Source: Escherichia coli (GTDB taxonomy: Bacteria; Pseudomonadota; Gammaproteobacteria; Enterobacterales; Enterobacteriaceae). From it: a stretch of DNA of 64,000 nt. Shown piece after piece: positions 1 through 47,872 of this stretch; the stretch's first letter is position 1; each line of letters begins with the position of its first letter. The DNA lies in assembly GCF_030013205.1 (NCBI RefSeq), contig NZ_CP122648.1. One strand, given 5' to 3'. The notes below the pieces were generated by a model. It did no database searches and had not been told where the DNA came from. It was given only the letters and a program-made list of their open reading frames with translations. Made by a program: the position numbers and the translations under genes.

Positions 1-78
1 TCCGCCGGACAGCTTAATTAATTCCTTACTTGGCCGGTTTAAGTCAGCCACGATCCGGCCTTTTTTCAGGAGCTGAAT

Positions 79-1026
79 ATGAAAACACTACCTCCAGTCG
101 CACTAGGTACATGGTCCTGGGGCACAGGCTTTGCCGGCGGCGACACCGTCTTTGGTAATCATCTTTCTGATACTCAGATGGCAGAAGTGTTCACTGCGGC
201 CATGAGTAAGGGCCTCAATCTCTGGGATACCGCAGCAGTATATGGTATGGGGAGTTCCGAGACTGCGCTGGGAGCATTAGTCCATCAGTTTCCCCGCGAG
301 AACATAATTTTATCCACCAAATTCACGCCGCAGATTGCGGACAAGCAGTCTGCGCAGCCTGTCAGCGATATGCTTGAGGCCAGCCTTGGGCGCTTGGGCG
401 TGGACGCGATTGATATCTACTGGATCCATAATCCCCTCGACGTCGAAAAATGGACGCCAGGATTGATCCCACTTTTACAAAACGGTAAGGTAAAACGCGT
501 AGGTGTTTCCAACCACAATCTGGCACAAATCAGACGCGCCAATGAAATCCTTAACGCTTCCGGTTATTCCCTCAGTGCAGTACAAAATCACTACAGCCTG
601 CTCTATCGCGCTTCTGAAGAGGCCGGGATCCTTGATTATTGCCGACAAAATAACATCACGTTCTTTGCTTACATGGTCCTGGAGCAAGGCGCGCTCAGTG
701 GTCGTTATGATTCAAATCATCCCATGCCTGCCGGGAGTGGCCGGGCCGAAAGTTATAACGCAGTACTGCCGCAGATAGAAAGACTAACTGCCGCCATGAA
801 AAAAATGGGAGCCGAAAGGAATGCCAGCGTGGCACAGATAGCCATCGCATGGGCTATTGCGAAAGGTACCCTTCCCCTCGTTGGTGCGACTAAAGTCCAT
901 CACGTTCTGGACGCCGCCTGCGCTTCAGACATCCAGTTACGCGATGAGGAAATCATCCTGCTGGAACAACTCGCCGCAGAGACCAGAGTGGATACACGAG
1001 GCGCCTGGGAAAAACCGATGGTGTAA
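79..1026 (+). CDS. Aldo-keto reductase family oxidoreductase (315 aa)
   Basis: ORF translation has AKR hallmarks (N-terminal GTWSWG motif, TIM-barrel-length product); AGGAG Shine-Dalgarno about 8 nt upstream of ATG. Confidence 0.8.
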   Translation: MKTLPPVALGTWSWGTGFAGGDTVFGNHLSDTQMAEVFTAAMSKGLNLWDTAAVYGMGSSETALGALVHQFPRENIILSTKFTPQIADKQSAQPVSDMLEASLGRLGVDAIDIYWIHNPLDVEKWTPGLIPLLQNGKVKRVGVSNHNLAQIRRANEILNASGYSLSAVQNHYSLLYRASEEAGILDYCRQNNITFFAYMVLEQGALSGRYDSNHPMPAGSGRAESYNAVLPQIERLTAAMKKMGAERNASVAQIAIAWAIAKGTLPLVGATKVHHVLDAACASDIQLRDEEIILLEQLAAETRVDTRGAWEKPMV

Positions 1027-1128
1027 AGCCCGTCCGGAACAGACTGTCATGAATGACACACACGAACGGGCTGTTCCGGGTGATTCTAATCTGTATCACT
1101 TTTACTGCTTTGTATGAATGGTGAGAAT

Positions 1129-1805
1129 ATGAAAATCATTTGCCTCGAAGAACATTATCTCGACAGCGAGTTAGGGCGAGCGTGTATGCCTGTTGCGCTT
1201 GAGCAGGCACCTTTCCTTGGCGACTGGGGGAAAACCGTCGCTGATGGTCATAATCCTGACCGACTCCCTGCTTTCCCGCTTTAATAAACTGAATGTGCCA
1301 CTCTATCTTCATCCCGGGTTACCGCTTAAAAGCGTACAGCAGGCCTACTTCACGGGCTTCAGCGCAGAGGTCAACGCCAGGCTTTCTATGTTTGCCTGGG
1401 GCTGGCATCACGAAGCGGGGATCCATTTGTTGCGGCTGATGTTATCGGGCGCATTTGATAAATATCCCAACCTGCAGGTAATCAGTGGCCACTGGGGGGA
1501 GATGTTACCCTTCTGGCTCCAGCGTCTTGATGACAGCCTACCACTGGCTGCAACGGGTCTGTCACGCACGCTAACGAGAACCTTCCAGGAACACGTTTAC
1601 GTTACCCCGCCATATGCTAACACTGCCGCACTTCCAGTTTATCTACGCGTTAATGGGTGCTGAAAGGATCCTGTTCTCCGTCGATTATCCCTATCAGACC
1701 CTGGACGGTGTAAAAACCTTTATAGACAGTCTGCCCGTCAACAAGGCTGAAAAAGAGGCCATCGCATTTCGCAATGCAGAACGTTTACTGGGCATCACGG
1801 CGTAG
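1129..1805 (+). pseudogene. Amidohydrolase-2 (ACMSD-like metal-dependent hydrolase) gene, fragmented across three reading frames
   Basis: Short N-terminal ORF from ATG 1129 stops after about 50 codons; homologous segments continue in ORFs 1193..1663 and 1614..1805 in other frames; total span about 225 codons versus about 300 expected. Confidence 0.5.
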
Positions 1806-1954
1806 TTCACGGGTTCGTGATGACCGGTACAATGAGAACAGTTGACCATTATTAGTTTTTGTCTAAAAGTGAATGAGTCTTTACTGCTCTAAAAAAATAA
1901 TGTTGTCACTCTATACTGGATTTAATATTCACCAAAGATGTTTAACTGATTGAA

Positions 1955-2527
1955 ATGAAAAATATCCTTGTTATTTCAGGTCATCCTGAGCTTACCCATT
2001 CCGTCGCCAATGCCACTATTCTTGATGAAGTGGAGACCGCCCTTCCTGATGTTGAGATTCGTCGTCTGGACAGGCTCTATCCGGATGGCAAATTCAACAT
2101 CGCGGCGGAGCAGGAAAGCCTGCTCAGGGCCGATGTGATTGTCTGGCAGTTCCCTTTTTCCTGGTATGGGCTGCCAGGATTAATGAAAAAATGGCTGGAC
2201 GAGGTCTTTGTTCACGGCTTCGCGCATGGCTCAACGGCGAAACTGGGCGGTAAAAAGCTGATCCTCTCCTTTACAACGGGAGCGCCAGAGGAGCTCTATA
2301 CCGTCGACAGTTTCTTTGGCCATACCATTGAAGAGTATCTTATTCCGTTCGAAACCACGGCAAGGCTGTGCAATCTTGAGCTGCTGACGCCGGTTTATAC
2401 CTGCGGTATCAGCTATGCCGACCGGGATGCCGACAAAATCGCGCAGCAAAAAACGCTTGCCCGGGAACACGCTTCAAGGCTTGTCGAACTGCTCAATTCC
2501 GTCGTGAATAATCCAGAGGGAGAATAA
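1955..2527 (+). CDS. Flavodoxin-like fold NAD(P)H dehydrogenase (quinone) family protein (190 aa)
   Basis: Translation begins MKNILVISGHP with WQFPFSWYGLPGLMKKWLD, typical of flavodoxin-2 NAD(P)H quinone reductases; stop is 2 nt before next gene. Confidence 0.7.
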   Translation: MKNILVISGHPELTHSVANATILDEVETALPDVEIRRLDRLYPDGKFNIAAEQESLLRADVIVWQFPFSWYGLPGLMKKWLDEVFVHGFAHGSTAKLGGKKLILSFTTGAPEELYTVDSFFGHTIEEYLIPFETTARLCNLELLTPVYTCGISYADRDADKIAQQKTLAREHASRLVELLNSVVNNPEGE

Positions 2528-2529
2528 CA

Positions 2530-3549
2530 ATGCAGTATACCCGGCTCGGTAAAAGTGACTTACTTGTTTCCCGCATCTGCATGGGATGCATGGGGTTTGG
2601 CGATCCGTCGACGGGTCAGCATAGCTGGACGCTGGACGAAACAGCAAGCCGCGACATCATTCGCTATGGCCTTGAAAAGGGCATCAACTTTTACGATACC
2701 GCTATAGCCTACCAGAATGGCTCCAGTGAGCGATACGTTGGCCGGGCATTACGGGAGATGGCGAAACGCGATGATATCGTCCTGGCCACCAAGTTTCTGC
2801 CGCGAACCCCCGCACAAATTGCCGGAGGGATCAGCGGAAAAGAGGCAATCGCTCAATCCCTTGACCAGAGCCTGAAGAATCTGGGGATGGACTATATCGA
2901 CCTCTACATCTACCACATCTGGGATTACAACACGCCCATTATCGACGTGCTTGAAGCGTTACATACCGCTGTTACTGCTGGCAAAGTACGAGCTGTTGGT
3001 ATTTCAAACTGCTATGCCTGGCAGCTGGCGAAGGCGAACGCCCTTGCTGAACGCGAAGGGCTGACGCCCTTTGTTTCCGTACAGAGCCACTACAATCTAA
3101 TTATGCGCGAAGATGAACGGGAGCTCTTCGGCCTGTGCACTGAGGATAATATCGCAATGACCCCCTATAGCGCGCTGGCCAGCGGCCGCCTCTCTCGTAA
3201 AGAAGGCTATACACGGCGAGCCACAGAGGATGACTATGCGCGTGGAAAATATGACAGCACGGCTGAACAGGATCGCAGCATTATTGAGCGTGTAGCCGAA
3301 CTGGCCGAACGCCATCTGGTGTCAATGACGGAAATATCTCTCGCTTGGCTGCTGACAAAAGTCACATCACCTGTCGTAGGGGCTACAAAAAAAGCTCATG
3401 TCGATGGCGCGGTAAACGCAGTAAATCTTCAACTAAGTCCGGAGGAAATTCAGTTTCTGGAAGAAACCTACCAGCCGCATGTTCTGACGGGGATCATGGC
3501 GCAAAATACGCCGCAAACGAAAGATGTTAAGCAGGTCTGGATGCGATAG
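2530..3549 (+). CDS. Aldo-keto reductase (Tas/YajO-like, 339 aa)
   Basis: ORF translation (RLGKSDLLVSRICMGCMGFGD, IDLYIYH) matches the AKR family; tightly coupled to upstream gene. Confidence 0.8.
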   Translation: MQYTRLGKSDLLVSRICMGCMGFGDPSTGQHSWTLDETASRDIIRYGLEKGINFYDTAIAYQNGSSERYVGRALREMAKRDDIVLATKFLPRTPAQIAGGISGKEAIAQSLDQSLKNLGMDYIDLYIYHIWDYNTPIIDVLEALHTAVTAGKVRAVGISNCYAWQLAKANALAEREGLTPFVSVQSHYNLIMREDERELFGLCTEDNIAMTPYSALASGRLSRKEGYTRRATEDDYARGKYDSTAEQDRSIIERVAELAERHLVSMTEISLAWLLTKVTSPVVGATKKAHVDGAVNAVNLQLSPEEIQFLEETYQPHVLTGIMAQNTPQTKDVKQVWMR

Positions 3550-3664
3550 CCCTTATTCACTTTTCCTCCTCTCGTCTTTGAGAGCGCCAGTAGCGGTCGG
3601 TTACGTTCTTACCAGCACCAGTTGATCGAACGTCTTAAACAGTAACGTCAGTAAAAAGATCATC

Positions 3665-4390
3665 GTGAAAAAGACTTTTATGCTTTTAATTTGCATGCTA
3701 ATAAGCAGCCCTGTCTTTGCAACAAAACCGGACGCGCCGAATAAGTCGGAGATGAATATCTTCGAGCTCGGCATCAGACCCGATCGGGACAACGACTTTG
3801 CAGACGTGGCCAGACAGACGATTTCCGCTTCGGTTGATCATGAAGCAGGTACACTGGCGATGTATGCCCTGCAACGCAGCGACAATTCAGGTCAGGCATT
3901 CATGTTCGAACTCTATGAAAATGAGCGTGCTTATCGCAAACATCTCAATGCCGCCCCATACAAAGCATTCGCTGCTCGTGCACCTGACATTATTGACAGG
4001 AAGAAGAAAATTACCCTGGAGCCACAGTTTCTGGGCGACAAACACATCATACCGAATGAACGAACTATCAATAATCTGGTGATCGTCGAAGTAAAGCCTG
4101 AATTTCAGAGCGAATTTAGAAACATCGTCCTTCCTGAAATGGTCGAGTCGCTCAAAGTAGAGAAAGGCGTGTTAGCCATGTATGCCGGTACAGATTCAGA
4201 GACTCCAAAACGCTGGTATTTCTATGAGATTTACGCCAGTGAGGAGGATTATCAACTGCACCGACAAACGCTGCACTTCCTGGATTACCTCAGGCAAACG
4301 GCGCATATGAGCGCCAGGAAGGACGCAATCCCGGTAAAACCGGTATTTCTTCGTAACAAAGGCGGAATCAAACAGGAGCCGCAACGTTGA
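3665..4390 (+). CDS. Secreted protein with two tandem ABM (antibiotic biosynthesis monooxygenase-like) domains (241 aa)
   Basis: N-terminal signal-peptide-like segment (MKKTFMLLICMLISSPVFA); two repeats with the ABM-type YExYxxExxYxxH pattern (FELYENERAYRKHL and YEIYASEEDYQLHR). Confidence 0.55.
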   Translation: MKKTFMLLICMLISSPVFATKPDAPNKSEMNIFELGIRPDRDNDFADVARQTISASVDHEAGTLAMYALQRSDNSGQAFMFELYENERAYRKHLNAAPYKAFAARAPDIIDRKKKITLEPQFLGDKHIIPNERTINNLVIVEVKPEFQSEFRNIVLPEMVESLKVEKGVLAMYAGTDSETPKRWYFYEIYASEEDYQLHRQTLHFLDYLRQTAHMSARKDAIPVKPVFLRNKGGIKQEPQR

Positions 4391-4405
4391 CCAGTAAGGA
4401 TTAAC

Positions 4406-5170
4406 ATGAAAAGCGTACTTGCAGCAGCGGCTATGTCGCTTGTTATTTCTGATTTTGCCAATGCTGAGGAAACAAGAGGTAAAGCTATGATGAAAATAGA
4501 ACCGTCAGCGATTTCGGAAGCTGATATTCGTTCCGTCTCACCGGCTCTCGCGCGCTTTGGTCGCGAAGCTATTACTGAAGATCTGTGGACACGCGACGCC
4601 CTCTCACCGAGGGATCGTAGTGTGGTGACCGTCGCCATGCTGATTGCCCGCAACCAGCCTGCCGAGCTTAAGCACTATATTGACGTCGCTCTCGATAGCG
4701 GCGTGACGCCAGCGGAATTATCAGAAATCATTACCCATCTGGCGTTCTACTCAGGTTGGCCAAATGCAATGTCAGCCGTCAGCGTGATCAAAGCAGTATT
4801 TGAAACTCGTGGCGTCACGGCAGATGCACTTCCTGAAGCTTCTCCGGACCTGCTTCCTCTCAATCAGGAAGCAGAAAAGCAGCGTTCAGAGACAGTGGAA
4901 AAAAATGTTGGCCCAATATCTCCAGGCCTGGTTAAATTCACTGCTGATCCACTCTTCCTGGATCTCTGGCAAAGACCCGCGCTGAAACCCCGCGACAGAA
5001 GCCTGATTACGGTCAGCGCCTTAATCGCATCCGGACAGAGCGCGCAGATTGGCTATCACCTCAATAGAGCAATGGATAATGGACTTTCGGTGAGATCGTT
5101 ACCCAGGCCGCCTTCTATGCTGGCTGGCCAAACGCATTTACCGCTGCTCCGGTTGTGGGAGAGGTGCTAA
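4406..5170 (+). CDS. Carboxymuconolactone decarboxylase (CMD/AhpD-like) family protein with two CMD repeats; C-terminus apparently frameshifted
   Basis: Two repeats of the DRSxxTV...HLAFYxGWPNA pattern; the second repeat's conserved motif (EIVTQAAFYAGWPNAF) is encoded in a different frame from about 5092 and runs to a stop at 5196. Confidence 0.6.
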   Translation: MKSVLAAAAMSLVISDFANAEETRGKAMMKIEPSAISEADIRSVSPALARFGREAITEDLWTRDALSPRDRSVVTVAMLIARNQPAELKHYIDVALDSGVTPAELSEIITHLAFYSGWPNAMSAVSVIKAVFETRGVTADALPEASPDLLPLNQEAEKQRSETVEKNVGPISPGLVKFTADPLFLDLWQRPALKPRDRSLITVSALIASGQSAQIGYHLNRAMDNGLSVRSLPRPPSMLAGQTHLPLLRLWERC

Positions 5171-5610
5171 ACAATCGATCATCGAGTAAAAGGTAACATT
5201 ACTGAACACTAAAACCTGACGCACATCACAAAATTAGAACGATCAGTTCATGAACCAACAGACGTGACATCGAGTGATTTATGGACAGCGTTTAACACAG
5301 TTATGAACCAAAACTGAGTTCATAACTGTGAGTTTGAATCGTCATTTGATTAATATCCATTTAAAACAGTTTGTTATGCTGTTTCTGGTGCTGAAGTCAA
5401 TTATGTATATCCCTCAAACCCAGAATAGTTAAATGGAATTTGAGTGATGCGAAGCGATTTTACGGTCGTCGTTATTACTTCAGGGTTCCAGAACATAAAG
5501 CCTCTCCTCTTTCATGATTGGCCTGTGCATACCTGATATAGGCTGGCTGGTATGCAGGTTTGCCGTTTGCCGCATCTTCCCTGCGTTGAAGAGTCAGGCT
5601 GGCAAACCGC

Positions 5611-5865
5611 GTGCAAATGAACACCCCCTCTTTCCATCAACAATTCAGACAGCTTGCGGGAATGAGTCCACTCCGGTATCAGAAATGGCTACGCCTCAAT
5701 GAAGCCAGGCGACTGATGCTGAATGAACATTACGATGTCACCACTGCAGCCTATGCTGTCGGTTACGAAAGCTTATCCCATTTCAGTCGGGAATATTCGC
5801 GGATGTTTGGAGAGTCACCTAAGAGAGATATTACCAGGTTAAGAAAGTCTGTCGGTCAGCTTTAA
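5611..5865 (+). pseudogene. yneL: AraC-family regulator remnant, C-terminal HTH domain only (yneL-like)
   Basis: 84-aa ORF contains only the AraC-type HTH region (LAGMSPLRYQKWLRLNEARRLM ... SLSHFSREYSRMFGESP); no intact N-terminal domain ORF upstream. Confidence 0.55.
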
Positions 5866-6297
5866 TAAACCCTGCACTTATCTGTTTAGAGCAATTCCGT
5901 GTTAGTTACACCAGGCAAACATTAACCATAGCTAATGTTTTATAGCCATATAAACCATTGGCCGCTCTTGACCTTTCCTGACACTTCCCTTGTTCGCAAT
6001 AATATTCTGTTTAGTCGCTGTTTATAAATAACATGCATAATGAAATCGTAATGTTATTTAGCGACATAAAATGTCTTTGCAAATACTCTCTACAACAAGT
6101 GCTGCAATAAACTTGTTGTGATTAGGTGTCCTTGTAATTTAAAGATATTATCGTTCTTCGTGAAATGTAATAACCCTGGAACTATATTCTCAGGGCAATA
6201 TCCCATCAAGAATGATTCTTGTTTTATAAGCAATAACAGAATGACTTAATTGTTAACTTTCTTTATTCAGCTACTTAAATATAAATTTTGGAGAATT

Positions 6298-6861
6298 ATG
6301 AAACTCAAACATGTCGGTATGATTGTCGTTTCTGTGTTGGCGATGTCGTCTGCTGCGGTAAGCGCAGCCGAGGGTGATGAATCAGTAACGACCACTGTTA
6401 ATGGCGGTGTTATTCATTTTAAAGGTGAAGTGGTAAATGCCGCTTGTGCGATTGATTCAGAATCAATGAACCAAACGGTTGAGCTGGGTCAGGTCCGTTC
6501 TTCTCGTCTGGCTAAAGCGGGTGACCTCAGCTCCGCCGTTGGCTTCAATATCAAGCTGAATGATTGTGATACCAATGTTTCCAGTAATGCAGCTGTTGCA
6601 TTCCTGGGTACTACTGTCACCAGTAATGACGACACATTAGCGCTTCAGAGTTCAGCGGCAGGCTCTGCCCAAAATGTCGGTATTCAAATTTTGGACCGTA
6701 CGGGTGAGGTATTAATACTTGATGGTGCCACTTTTAGTGCTAAAACTGACTTGATTGATGGCACGAATATATTGCCGTTCCAGGCTAGATATATTGCTCT
6801 CGGGCAGTCAGTAGCTGGTACTGCAAACGCTGATGCGACCTTCAAAGTTCAATATCTATAA
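6298..6861 (+). CDS. Fimbrial major subunit (type-1-like pilin; F9/Fml-type operon)
   Basis: 187-aa product from internal ATG with GGAG RBS; signal peptide, conserved pilin Cys pair and C-terminal beta strand (ATFKVQYL); first gene of the chaperone-usher operon. Confidence 0.8.
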
Positions 6862-44442: not shown

Positions 44443-44472
44443 TTCATAACCATCAGTCCTCAATGACGATTA

Positions 44473-44507
44473 AACACCATTGCCTGCGCAATGGTGTTTT
44501 TGTTTTT
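44473..44507 (+). terminator. Rho-independent terminator after sra
   Basis: AACACCATTG / CAATGGTGTT stem followed by TTTTGTTTTT. Confidence 0.6.
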
Positions 44508-47841: not shown

Positions 47842-47872
47842 AAAAAATGGCGCTTCTTAAAGCGCCATTTTC
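47841..47872. terminator. Bidirectional terminator between convergent yddM and fdnI
   Basis: AAAATGGCGCT / AGCGCCATTTT stem with A-tract on one side and T-tract on the other. Confidence 0.6.

What the first reader, a model, noticed from the sequence alone, without database searches (positions are those of the whole stretch)
5240..5865. Truncated AraC regulator preceded by palindromic GTTCATGAAC-type motifs
Only the HTH domain of the AraC-family gene survives. Upstream lie a perfect 10-bp palindrome GTTCATGAAC (5246..5255) and a 12-bp inverted repeat ACAGTTATGAAC-N9-GTTCATAACTGT (5297..5329). These could be operator sites of the lost regulator or scars of the deletion that removed its N-terminal domain.
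Basis: seen in the sequence. Interest (0 to 1): 0.4.

Follow-up and report, generated by a model that had tools for sequence, protein, structure and literature searches.

The report
Mobile island end beside dif
The "truncated AraC regulator" is the known dead gene yneL of E. coli, and the palindromes in front of it are not its operators but part of the conserved right end of a mobile genomic island that inserts exactly at the edge of dif, the site where the chromosome dimer is resolved.

Summary
In detail: GTTCATGAAC lies at 5246-5255, the inverted repeat is a perfect 13-bp repeat at 5296-5308/5318-5330, and the 84-aa AraC-type ORF is at 5611-5865. The interpretation does not hold.

The ORF is the E. 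coli pseudogene yneL, equal to residues 217-303 of a 304-aa YqhC-like regulator. DNA between 5435 and 5597 consists of leftover pieces of two neighbouring genes. K-12 carries a different, incompatible deletion.

Both palindromes lie in a discrete 238-nt AT-rich module (5197-5434) that ends in the invariant string CAAACCCAGAAT-AGTTAAAT. This module is the right end of a 7.75-kb island. The island's left end abuts the XerD arm of a perfect dif site, just before the window starts.

The same two ends bracket unrelated cargo on the 1008S13 chromosome and on plasmids. Ten of ten sampled left ends abut TTATGTTAAAT. Autonomous members carry a four-gene recombinase operon with GInt-like architecture; the window's copy has none. 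About 11-12% of complete E. coli genomes carry the dif/left-end junction.

The ATGAAC repeats are most likely recombinase-binding sites; this is inferred, not shown. I found no paper describing Xer-site targeting by such elements.

The parts
1..5434 (+). Right-hand 5.4 kb of a 7,753-bp island inserted at dif. The island starts 2,318 bp before the window, directly after the dif XerD arm in the source genome. Cargo: a LysR regulator (outside the window), aldo/keto reductases, amidohydrolase fragments, an NAD(P)H oxidoreductase, an ABM monooxygenase and a CMD-family gene. It has no recombinase gene.
   Evidence: The window is 100% identical to E. coli K_EC180. In that genome the order is hipA, perfect dif (L095 32740-32767), island (L095 32768-40520 = up to window 5434), then the yneL remnant.
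4406..5196 (+). Last cargo gene: a carboxymuconolactone decarboxylase (CMD) family pseudogene, frameshifted by a deletion of about 14 bp near 5091.
   Evidence: Pfam CMD, PGAP 'frameshifted', and a length difference against L008 and other E. coli.
5197..5434 (.). Right-end module of the island: 238 nt, 35% G+C, non-coding. It contains both palindromes of the finding.
   Evidence: Full-length copies at 70-76% identity sit next to unrelated cargo, and all end at the same base. No Rfam family matches and there is no phage match.
5246..5255 (.). First palindrome, GTTCATGAAC, made of two overlapping ATGAAC repeats. The conserved core is TCATGAAC(C/A)AA.
   Evidence: The perfect symmetry is not conserved (ATTCATGAAC in Chimaeribacter, GCTCATGAAC in 1008S13), and the site is absent from the distant Citrobacter copy.
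5296..5330 (.). 13-bp perfect inverted repeat CACAGTTATGAAC-N9-GTTCATAACTGTG, that is two inverted GTTATGAAC repeats.
   Evidence: -19.5 kcal/mol as RNA, z = -5.4. The inner 8 bp are invariant in the four full-length variants and one arm carries a substitution in the distant Citrobacter copy. No pair changes on both sides.
5399..5407 (.). Conserved sub-terminal box, AATTATGTA.
   Evidence: Conserved in all right-end copies, including those truncated by IS elements.
5415..5426 (.). Terminal inverted-repeat motif CAAACCCAGAAT. Its partner at the island's left end is ATGGTGGGTTTG (10 of 12 complementary). The pair is a perfect CCCAGAAT/ATTCTGGG in the Chimaeribacter element.
5427..5434 (.). Terminal AGTTAAAT. 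Its last 7 bases repeat the end of the dif XerD arm (TTATGTTAAAT) found at the island's other border, so this is the inferred crossover region.
   Evidence: Before/after pairs: K-12 versus 1008S13, and plasmid R27 versus NZ_CP024236.
5435..5440 (.). Six chromosomal bases directly after the island end. They differ between E. coli lineages (GGAATT here, CATGTC in K-12, CGTATC in O157), after which the flanks converge on TGAGTGATGCGAAG.
   Evidence: The meaning is unproven; it may be a recombination footprint.
5445..5516 (-). Two leftover pieces of a DUF2255 gene: its 5' end and upstream region.
   Evidence: blastn to L008 6001-6026 and 6045-6087. The gene is intact in L008 and in Klebsiella.
5539..5596 (-). 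Leftover internal piece of an alpha/beta (dienelactone-type) hydrolase gene.
   Evidence: blastn to L008 6547-6599 and to Klebsiella loci at 93%.
5598..5865 (+). yneL: the C-terminal remnant (residues 217-303 of 304) of a YqhC-like AraC-family regulator. It is a pseudogene.
   Evidence: K-12 carries a shorter, frameshifted version produced by a different deletion.

Best explanation
Two unrelated things lie side by side here.

(1) 5598-5865 is yneL, the decayed C-terminal stump of a YqhC-like AraC regulator. Its ancestral neighbours, a divergently transcribed hydrolase and a DUF2255 gene, were removed by several deletions, which differ between E. coli lineages.

(2) The palindromes belong to the 238-nt right-end module (5197-5434) of a 7.75-kb island. 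The island is inserted exactly at the outer edge of the XerD-binding arm of the chromosomal dif site.

The island belongs to a family with a conserved left end of about 70 nt, variable cargo and this right end. The two ends carry 12-bp terminal inverted repeats around the shared bases (G)TTAAAT. Autonomous relatives carry a four-gene operon at the left end: two divergent tyrosine recombinases, a large protein and a small protein. This is the architecture described for GInt islands. The window's island has lost that operon and keeps only the two ends.

Shown: the boundaries, the family, the exact target position and the insertion before/after pairs. Inferred: the element's recombinases, not XerCD, cut within or beside TTAAAT. 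Also inferred: the ATGAAC/GTTCAT repeats (palindrome 1, both arms of the 13-bp inverted repeat, and two copies in the left end) are accessory 'arm-type' binding sites that assemble the recombination complex.
For: yneL:
- PGAP annotates a partial pseudogene.
- Pfam HTH_18 covers profile positions 6-76 of 80.
- tblastn places the fragment at residues 217-303 of a 304-aa regulator.
- The upstream DNA matches hydrolase and DUF2255 fragments, not the regulator's N-terminus.
- K-12 keeps L008 6119-6189 but lacks 6547-6604 and 8119-8177, so the deletions were independent.

Island:
- A perfect dif lies directly after hipA, and the island starts at the next base.
- The dif sequence and its position between hipA and yneL are confirmed in the literature.
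- All 11 distinct right-end copies fetched (12 loci) end ...CCCAGAATAGTTAAAT and are unrelated beyond that point.
- E. coli 1008S13 has a different island in the same slot. Its right flank is identical to the sequence that follows dif in K-12.
- Left ends are conserved for about 70 nt.
- Ten of ten sampled left ends abut a 28-bp Xer-type site with a perfect XerD arm and variable central regions and XerC arms. Six of these came from a search that did not include the Xer site.
- Plasmid NZ_CP024236 shows a new element inserted precisely between the XerD arm and the resident left end seen in R27.
- The four-gene operon in the Enterobacter plasmid gives sub-threshold Phage_integrase hits for proteins 1 and 2 and an NCBIfam integrase hit at 2.6e-24. 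It is 95-97% identical to the decayed operon next to dif in 1008S13.
- The published GInt description matches: ginABCD, cargo, a 0.2-0.4 kb AT-rich 3' end, and 10-11-nt imperfect direct repeats. GInts occur in 7.5% of Escherichia replicons. hipA-ydeT is defence hotspot #20.

Repeats: ATGAAC enrichment and conserved positions in both ends.
Against: - No experiment or read-level evidence of excision or circles was available.
- Homology of the four-gene operon to reference GinABCD proteins was not tested. The Pfam hits are below threshold and a PDB sequence search found nothing.
- The window's own island has no recombinase, so its mobility is only inferred from its ends.
- The stem of the 13-bp repeat shows no compensatory changes, so hairpin and duplex protein site cannot be told apart.
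- The Chimaeribacter and Klebsiella-plasmid right-end copies retain a relic of the CMD gene's last codons (not examined in 1008S13 or Citrobacter). Part of the module could therefore be hitch-hiking 3' flank of an ancestral cargo gene rather than functional recombination sequence.
- Palindrome 1 is missing from the most distant copy.
Confidence: 0.78

Rival explanations
1. The motifs are operator sites of the lost AraC regulator.
For: Dyad symmetry and proximity to the remnant in this strain.
Against: - In the undeleted arrangement the motifs are about 2.5 kb and two genes away from the regulator, beyond a convergent gene.
- The half-site is absent from the regulator's divergent promoter in L008 and L010.
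- The motifs are absent from K-12 and O157, which have the same remnant.
- The motifs occur on plasmids that lack the regulator.
Confidence: 0.02
2. The motifs are scars of the deletion that removed the N-terminal domain.
For: None beyond proximity.
Against: The motifs are 100% identical in L008, which has no deletion, and lie inside a colinear block. The junctions are elsewhere, at about 5440, 5516-5539 and 5597/5598.
Confidence: 0.01
3. The island is an IMEX. It has no recombinase of its own and is integrated and excised by host XerC/XerD at dif. A variant of this idea is a hybrid site at which an element recombinase cooperates with host XerD, as shown for the Tn6022-associated XerC-like protein.
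For: - The island sits at dif, the window's copy has no recombinase, and its terminal 7 bases equal the end of the XerD arm.
- IMEXs are known in Enterobacter.
- There is a precedent for a hybrid dif-like site.
Against: - The crossover lies outside dif's central region, and dif stays perfect.
- The right end reads AATAGTTAAAT rather than TTATGTTAAAT in every context. The sequence where a XerC arm should lie matches only 4 of 11 positions by direct reading.
- Relatives with the same ends encode their own recombinase operon.
- Known dif-integrating phages instead leave a repeat of the XerC side.
Confidence: 0.1
4. The 13-bp hairpin is simply the 3'-end stem-loop (terminator or stabiliser) of the CMD operon transcript. 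It would be inherited passively with the ancestral cargo flank and have no role in recombination.
For: - It lies 100 nt after the CMD stop codon.
- It forms a stable hairpin on both strands.
- The minus-strand fold of the block has z = -3.2.
- Relics of the CMD 3' codons accompany the module in the Chimaeribacter and Klebsiella-plasmid elements.
Against: - There is no U-tract and no terminator call.
- The arms are among the best conserved parts of the module in elements that lost CMD long ago.
- The distant Citrobacter copy keeps the arm sequences but not the pairing.
- The same hexamer recurs in the left end.
- CMD orthologues without the island have unrelated 3' flanks.
Confidence: 0.1

Closest known systems
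GInt islands (Genomic Islands with three Integrases; Tn6571 family; Bardaji et al. 2017, PMC5385486)
   Same: Tripartite layout: a multi-recombinase four-gene operon at one end, variable cargo (metabolic or anti-phage), and a 0.2-0.4 kb AT-rich 3' end. Also short imperfect direct repeats at the borders, strict site specificity, presence on chromosomes and plasmids, and presence in E. coli defence hotspots.
   Different: Published targets are gene ends (ssb, an ABC transporter, nrd). Here the target is the outer edge of the XerD arm of dif and of plasmid Xer-type sites. The authors reported no recognisable feature in the 3' end, whereas here there are terminal inverted repeats and ATGAAC repeats. 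The window's copy lacks the operon. Protein homology to GinABCD was not tested.
[quoted passage not shown]
   Same: Tyrosine-recombinase transposon-like elements with imperfect terminal inverted repeats (motifs C and C') flanking a 6-bp spacer, target specificity, and a small auxiliary protein.
   Different: The SE gene order is intA-tfp-intB-srap, whereas here two recombinase-like genes come first, as in GInt. SEs are mostly found in marine Gammaproteobacteria.
IMEX elements (CTXphi, TLCphi, gonococcal genetic island, EludIMEX-1/EcloIMEX)
   Same: Integrated at dif, and arrays can accumulate at the site.
   Different: IMEXs recombine within the dif core using host XerCD and are flanked by hybrid dif sites. 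Here dif is untouched, the junction is at the arm's outer edge, and relatives encode their own recombinases.
IS1202-family insertion sequences that target pdif/dif in Acinetobacter (PMC10132070)
   Same: A mobile element that uses Xer sites on plasmids and chromosomes as a landmark, at a fixed distance and orientation (abstract).
   Different: That element is a DDE-type IS inserting 5 bp from the XerC arm. The element here abuts the XerD arm and is of the tyrosine-recombinase type.
yneL pseudogene of E. coli K-12 and the YqhC subfamily of AraC regulators
   Same: Same locus between dif and the F9 (ydeQRST) fimbrial genes, with an HTH_18 domain. Relatives have the AraC_N (PF06719) ligand domain and sit divergently from oxidoreductase or hydrolase genes.
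   Different: The window's remnant is 58 nt longer at its 5' end than K-12's and is not frameshifted. It arose by a different deletion.

Membership tests
AraC/XylS transcription regulators (YqhC-like subfamily) | Complete C-terminal DNA-binding domain with two helix-turn-helix motifs (about 100 aa) | tested here: not met
   HTH_18 is matched from profile position 6. The fragment starts at residue 217 of 304, whereas homologues begin the domain at about residue 195-200.
AraC/XylS transcription regulators (YqhC-like subfamily) | N-terminal ligand-binding/dimerisation domain (AraC_N, PF06719) | tested here: not met
   Absent. The upstream DNA derives from hydrolase and DUF2255 genes. The domain is present in L008, L010 and Klebsiella.
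AraC/XylS transcription regulators (YqhC-like subfamily) | Own promoter and ribosome-binding site for the surviving ORF | tested here: inconclusive
   No sigma-70-like site on the + strand between 5000 and 5611, a GTG start, and no Shine-Dalgarno sequence by direct reading. Expression was not testable.
GInt (Tn6571-family) islands | ginABCD operon (two catalytic tyrosine recombinases, one recombinase-fold protein, one small protein) at the 5' end | tested here: not met
   The window's island has none. Relatives with the same ends have a four-gene overlapping operon of 507, 556, 845 and 167 aa with weak integrase signals. Homology to reference GinABCD was not tested.
GInt (Tn6571-family) islands | Short (0.2-0.4 kb) AT-rich 3' end after variable cargo | tested here: met
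   238 nt at 35% G+C, shared by elements with unrelated cargo.
GInt (Tn6571-family) islands | Imperfect 10-11-nt direct repeats at the two borders | tested here: met
   TTATGTTAAAT at the left border and AATAGTTAAAT at the right (7 of 11 identical, the last 7 contiguous).
GInt (Tn6571-family) islands | Site-specific insertion | tested here: met
   Ten of ten left ends lie at the XerD-arm edge, and there are two natural before/after pairs.
GInt (Tn6571-family) islands | Excision to a circular intermediate that depends on the four genes | not testable with these tools
   Needs PCR or genetics. The only indirect support is a right-end|left-end joint in a tandem array.
[quoted passage not shown] | A dif-like attP with XerC and XerD arms, crossover in the central region, and an element flanked by hybrid dif sites | tested here: not met
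   The left site is an intact dif. The right end has 7 of 11 XerD-arm matches and 4 of 11 XerC-arm matches, and the junction is outside the central region (by direct reading).
Intrinsic (Rho-independent) terminator | G+C-rich stem followed by a U-tract | tested here: not met
   No terminator-like site between 5000 and 6400. The stem is AT-rich and is followed by GAGUUUGAAUCG.
Any curated RNA family (Rfam 15) | Covariance-model match | tested here: not met
   No match with E <= 1 in 4900-6400.

The most novel reading that the evidence does not exclude
A family of GInt-type tyrosine-recombinase islands uses the XerD-binding arm of Xer sites as a universal attachment site. That covers chromosomal dif and the dimer-resolution sites of IncF, IncHI and other plasmids. 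The islands insert at the arm's outer edge without damaging the site and pile up in tandem. This lets defence and metabolic cargo shuttle between plasmids and the chromosome terminus. Recombinase-less derivatives such as the island in this window could be moved in trans. The ATGAAC repeats and the 13-bp inverted repeat of the finding would be the arm-type sites of this system, and XerD bound to its arm might serve as the landmark.
Probability: 0.5. Interest if true: 0.7.

Novelty: new variant of a known kind. Interest (0 to 1): 0.55.

Why it matters
For the finding as written, the result is a correction. There is no lost regulon or operator to look for, and yneL is an ordinary decaying pseudogene.

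What replaces it is more useful. It gives a sequence-level definition of both ends of an island family that occupies the E. coli dif locus in roughly one genome in nine and is widespread on enterobacterial plasmids.

It explains mechanistically why hipA-ydeT is a defence-island hotspot (#20 of Hochhauser et al.): the landmark is dif itself. It also suggests a route by which cargo moves between plasmids and the terminus of the chromosome.

It supplies candidate recognition sequences for GInt-type elements, whose ends were described as featureless. Finally, it raises a testable question: do such insertions, or XerD occupancy, influence each other at a site essential for chromosome segregation?

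Tried and rejected
- By eye I thought the frames upstream of 5599 still encoded the first helix-turn-helix (GYRLAG.../...SSLR*RVRLANRVQM against the Klebsiella protein). blastn showed that this DNA derives from the hydrolase gene on the other strand, so I rejected it.
- Terminator scan: nothing found.
- Rfam: nothing found.
- Phage origin of the block, for example a filamentous-phage attP: no match in 50,697 phage records.
- cer/psi-like Xer site with accessory sequences: the geometry is similar, but no XerC arm is recognisable, so I rejected it.
- LysR-type T-N11-A box or other known operator consensus: no fit by direct reading.
- Small ORF 5328-5432 (34 aa, GTG start): indels in the diverged copies break the frame and there is no ribosome-binding site, so I rejected it.
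- Covariation in the hairpin: none.
- More distant CMD orthologues (79 loci) were fetched to compare 3' flanks. Only L011 shares the block, which showed that the block is not tied to the CMD gene family.
- Pfam, NCBIfam and PDB sequence searches on the recombinase-like proteins gave only weak or no hits.
- EcloIMEX and EludIMEX papers: a different locus (setB-yeiP) and no usable sequences.
Full report
**Observation.** The sequence shows GTTCATGAAC at 5246-5255. It shows ACAGTTATGAAC-N9-GTTCATAACTGT at 5297-5329 and an 84-aa ORF at 5611-5865. The inverted repeat extends one base further on each side, giving 13 bp at 5296-5308/5318-5330. The ORF matches Pfam HTH_18 (E=6e-22) and HTH_AraC.

A perfect 10-bp palindrome is not unusual here: there are 51 in the window against about 67 expected. 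A perfect 13-bp inverted repeat with a short loop is expected 0.03 times and is the longest in the window. The two motifs share the direct repeat AGTT(C)ATGAACCAA, spaced 53 bp apart.

**Where the window comes from.** The region is 100% identical to E. coli K_EC180. PGAP annotates 5599-5865 as a helix-turn-helix regulator that is 'incomplete; missing N-terminus'. In K-12 the same remnant lies between hipA and the truncated fimbrial usher gene ydeT. This is yneL, for which no function has been reported. Downstream lies the complete F9 (ydeQRST-type) fimbrial operon.

**What the regulator was.** Relatives of the fragment have an AraC_N (PF06719) domain followed by two HTH motifs, which is the YqhC type. 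Locus L008, from a sequencing-run assembly of unknown organism, carries the same upstream genes as the window. It then has, on the minus strand, a DUF2255 gene and an alpha/beta hydrolase. Divergent from them is a full-length regulator open frame of about 304 codons, which the gene caller split in two.

Klebsiella pneumoniae has the same three genes. Its dif site, with one mismatch, lies about 3 kb to their left. Some E. coli carry an intact copy at about 90% identity in another island next to intS/argW, paired with an iron-containing alcohol dehydrogenase. The window's fragment equals residues 217-303 of that 304-aa protein. The ligand domain and the start of the DNA-binding domain are therefore gone.

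**How the regulator was lost.** blastn against L008 gives this map:
- window 5445-5470 and 5473-5516 are pieces of the 5' part of DUF2255;
- 5539-5591 is an internal piece of the hydrolase;
- 5598-5866 is the regulator's 3' end.

That implies at least three deletions, of about 0.4, 0.46 and 1.5 kb. O157:H7 shares this pattern. K-12 keeps L008 6119-6189, the DUF2255-hydrolase intergenic hairpin, but lacks 6547-6604 and 8119-8177. The two patterns cannot be derived from each other, so the cluster decayed independently in different lineages. My first impression, that frames upstream of 5599 still encoded the first HTH, was wrong.

**The palindromes do not belong to the regulator.** Window 3625-5434 is colinear with L008 3770-5592, and both motifs are 100% identical there. 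In that undeleted arrangement they lie just after the CMD-family gene (stop codon at 5194-5196). They are about 2.5 kb and two genes away from the regulator. The half-site GTTCAT/ATGAAC is absent from the regulator's divergent promoter in L008 and L010, and from the LysR-operon promoter. K-12 and O157 have the remnant but not the motifs. No terminator-like site and no Rfam family are found.

**A discrete, dispersed module.** CMD orthologues from 79 other species share the 3' flank only in Enterobacter sichuanensis. The 238 nt at 5197-5434 nevertheless have full-length copies at 70-76% identity in unrelated contexts:
- beside restriction/TIGR02391/Hachiman genes on Klebsiella, Enterobacter, Salmonella, Raoultella, Serratia and E. 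coli plasmids;
- beside AVAST genes on a Chimaeribacter plasmid;
- in E. coli 1008S13, between an integrase-bearing island and yneL.

All copies end at the same invariant string...CAAACCCAGAATAGTTAAAT, and are unrelated beyond it. The best conserved interior parts are TCATGAAC(C/A)AA, the two arms GTTATGAAC/GTTCATAAC, an AATTATGTA box and the last 20 nt.

**The link to dif.** In K-12 and O157 the sequence at the same breakpoint is GGTGCGCATAATGTATATTATGTTAAAT. This is the E. coli dif site, known to lie between hipA and yneL. In the window's genome a perfect dif follows hipA (L095 32740-32767). The island begins at the next base and ends with the module at window 5434, a length of 7,753 bp.

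The island encodes a LysR regulator, oxidoreductases and the CMD-family gene, with no recombinase. Its borders carry the imperfect direct repeat TTATGTTAAAT / AATAGTTAAAT.

Strain 1008S13 has a different island in the same slot. A perfect dif is followed by the same left-end sequence, the same kind of right end, and then exactly the bases that follow dif in K-12. This is a natural empty/occupied pair.

**An element family with defined ends.** The left ends of the two chromosomal islands are conserved for about 70 nt (ATGGTGGGTTTGTTCTTAAGTTCATG...GATGAATCAGTCAG) and then diverge. The first 12 nt of the left end are the inverted complement of CAAACCCAGAAT at the right end (10 of 12). In the Chimaeribacter element the pair is a perfect CCCAGAAT/ATTCTGGG around AGTTAAAT.

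On an Enterobacter plasmid the left end is followed by four overlapping genes of 507, 556, 845 and 167 aa, then defence cargo and the right end. Proteins 1 and 2 give weak tyrosine-recombinase signals: Pfam Phage_integrase at E=0.011 and 0.045, and NCBIfam integrase_1 at 2.6e-24 for protein 2. By my reading, protein 1 carries GLRVGE...HVGRHT...LGGWS...Y motifs. The operon next to dif in 1008S13 is 95-97% identical to it, but is frameshifted and cut by IS3.

This layout matches the published description of GInt islands:
- a ginABCD operon;
- cargo;
- a 0.2-0.4 kb AT-rich 3' end;
- 10-11-nt imperfect border repeats;
- 6-nt staggered cuts.

GInts are found in 7.5% of Escherichia replicons and in E. 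coli defence hotspots. hipA-ydeT is hotspot #20, occupied in 62 of 783 genomes, and dif is not mentioned there.

**Target specificity.** On the Enterobacter and Chimaeribacter plasmids the left end also abuts a Xer-type site:
- GGTGCGCTTAA-TGCTAT-TTATGTTAAAT on the Enterobacter plasmid;
- AGTGCGCTTAA-CGTGCA-TTATGTTAAAT on the Chimaeribacter plasmid.

A search with the left end alone found 156 plasmid records in 10 genera. All six sampled (Klebsiella x2, Pantoea, S. Typhi R27, S. Derby, Serratia) have a perfect XerD arm immediately upstream. Their central regions and XerC arms differ. That makes ten of ten contexts.

Plasmid NZ_CP024236 has the same Xer site as R27 (one base differs in the XerC arm). 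It then has a complete element, then the resident left end that directly follows the site in R27. This is a second before/after pair and shows tandem accretion.

In E. coli, the dif/left-end junction is present in 584-651 of 5,426 complete genomes and the right-end module in 556.

**Mechanism.**

Shown: precise insertion at the outer edge of the XerD arm, an intact dif, conserved ends with terminal inverted repeats, and relatives that encode their own recombinases.

Inferred: the element's recombinases cut within or next to TTAAAT, and the ATGAAC/GTTCAT repeats are accessory binding sites. The repeats sit at right-end positions 50/54, 107 and 122 and at left-end positions +20 and +53. There are 5 copies against 0.2 expected.

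The stem of the 13-bp repeat shows no compensatory change. Nine of 13 pairs never vary and none changes on both sides. The distant Citrobacter copy keeps the arm sequences while losing pairing. A hairpin, perhaps in a single-stranded intermediate, therefore cannot be distinguished from a duplex protein site.

A canonical Xer (IMEX) mechanism is unlikely. The junction lies outside dif's central region, and the right end reads AATAGTTAAAT in every context. No XerC arm is recognisable there.

A hybrid mechanism involving host XerD has a precedent in Acinetobacter and is not excluded.

The Chimaeribacter and Klebsiella-plasmid right-end copies carry a relic of the CMD gene's last codons. The CMD cargo therefore seems ancestral, and the left part of the module may be hitch-hiking flank.

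**Novelty.** yneL and its pseudogene status are known. GInt-type islands and the hipA-ydeT hotspot are known. In the searchable library I found no description of GInt-type or similar tyrosine-recombinase islands that target the XerD arm of dif and of plasmid Xer sites, nor of these end motifs. The nearest precedents are IS1202-family elements at the XerC side of Acinetobacter pdif sites and IMEXs. The library lacks most subscription journals, so prior description cannot be excluded.

**Verdict.** The motifs mark the right end of a recombinase-less, GInt-like island sitting at dif.

Noticed in passing
window 5435-5656; L002 4794-5000; L003 5008-5170: K-12 and the window/O157 type carry different, mutually incompatible deletions of the ancestral DUF2255-hydrolase-AraC cluster. 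yneL was therefore truncated at least twice independently within E. coli.
   Followed up: yes
window 5435-5440: The six bases directly after dif or the island end differ between lineages (GGAATT, CATGTC, CGTATC), while the flanks beyond are about 90-95% identical. This could be a 6-bp recombination footprint of past insertions and excisions, as described for SE/GInt/Tn554-type elements.
   Followed up: partly
window ~5091, ~1262 and 1915-3625: The cargo is decaying and rearranged relative to L008. There is a deletion of about 14 bp that frameshifts the CMD gene, a 355-bp internal deletion in the amidohydrolase gene, and a 1.7-kb extra segment (NAD(P)H oxidoreductase plus a second aldo/keto reductase) that L008 lacks. 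The island's LysR gene is also frameshifted; it lies outside the window.
   Followed up: partly
L010 9038-12482 (E. coli WP2-S18-ESBL-07): Some E. coli carry an intact copy of the regulator (304 aa, about 90% identical) with the hydrolase and an iron-containing alcohol dehydrogenase. It lies in an island next to intS/tRNA-Arg, in a yqhC/yqhD-like divergent arrangement.
   Followed up: partly
L096 20238-21010 (E. coli PCP06021): A different integrase-bearing element, whose integrase is 29% identical to protein 1 of the family, starts directly after the right-end GTTAAAT. Its first 40 nt also contain AGTTCATAAC. This suggests that related families stack at the same joint.
   Followed up: no
L102 401-451 (E. 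coli plasmid pRHB14-C16_2): A right end truncated by IS3 terminates in GTTAAAC instead of GTTAAAT. This would fit a terminal hexamer copied from a donor Xer site with a variant XerD arm.
   Followed up: no
L106 (S. Typhi plasmid R27) and L110 11054-16315: The classic IncHI1 plasmid R27 carries a left end of this family directly at its Xer-type site. In the related plasmid L110 that same left end is followed by tricarballylate (tcu) genes. The tcu region may therefore be old cargo of such an element.
   Followed up: partly
window 15286-15316, 29630-29657, 44472-44499, 47844-47871: There are four other perfect inverted repeats with stems of at least 12 bp and short loops. They are probably terminators or REP-type elements and were not examined.
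   Followed up: no
window 7976-10627: PGAP flags the F9 usher gene of this strain as frameshifted, yet the window shows one uninterrupted 883-aa ORF.
   Followed up: no
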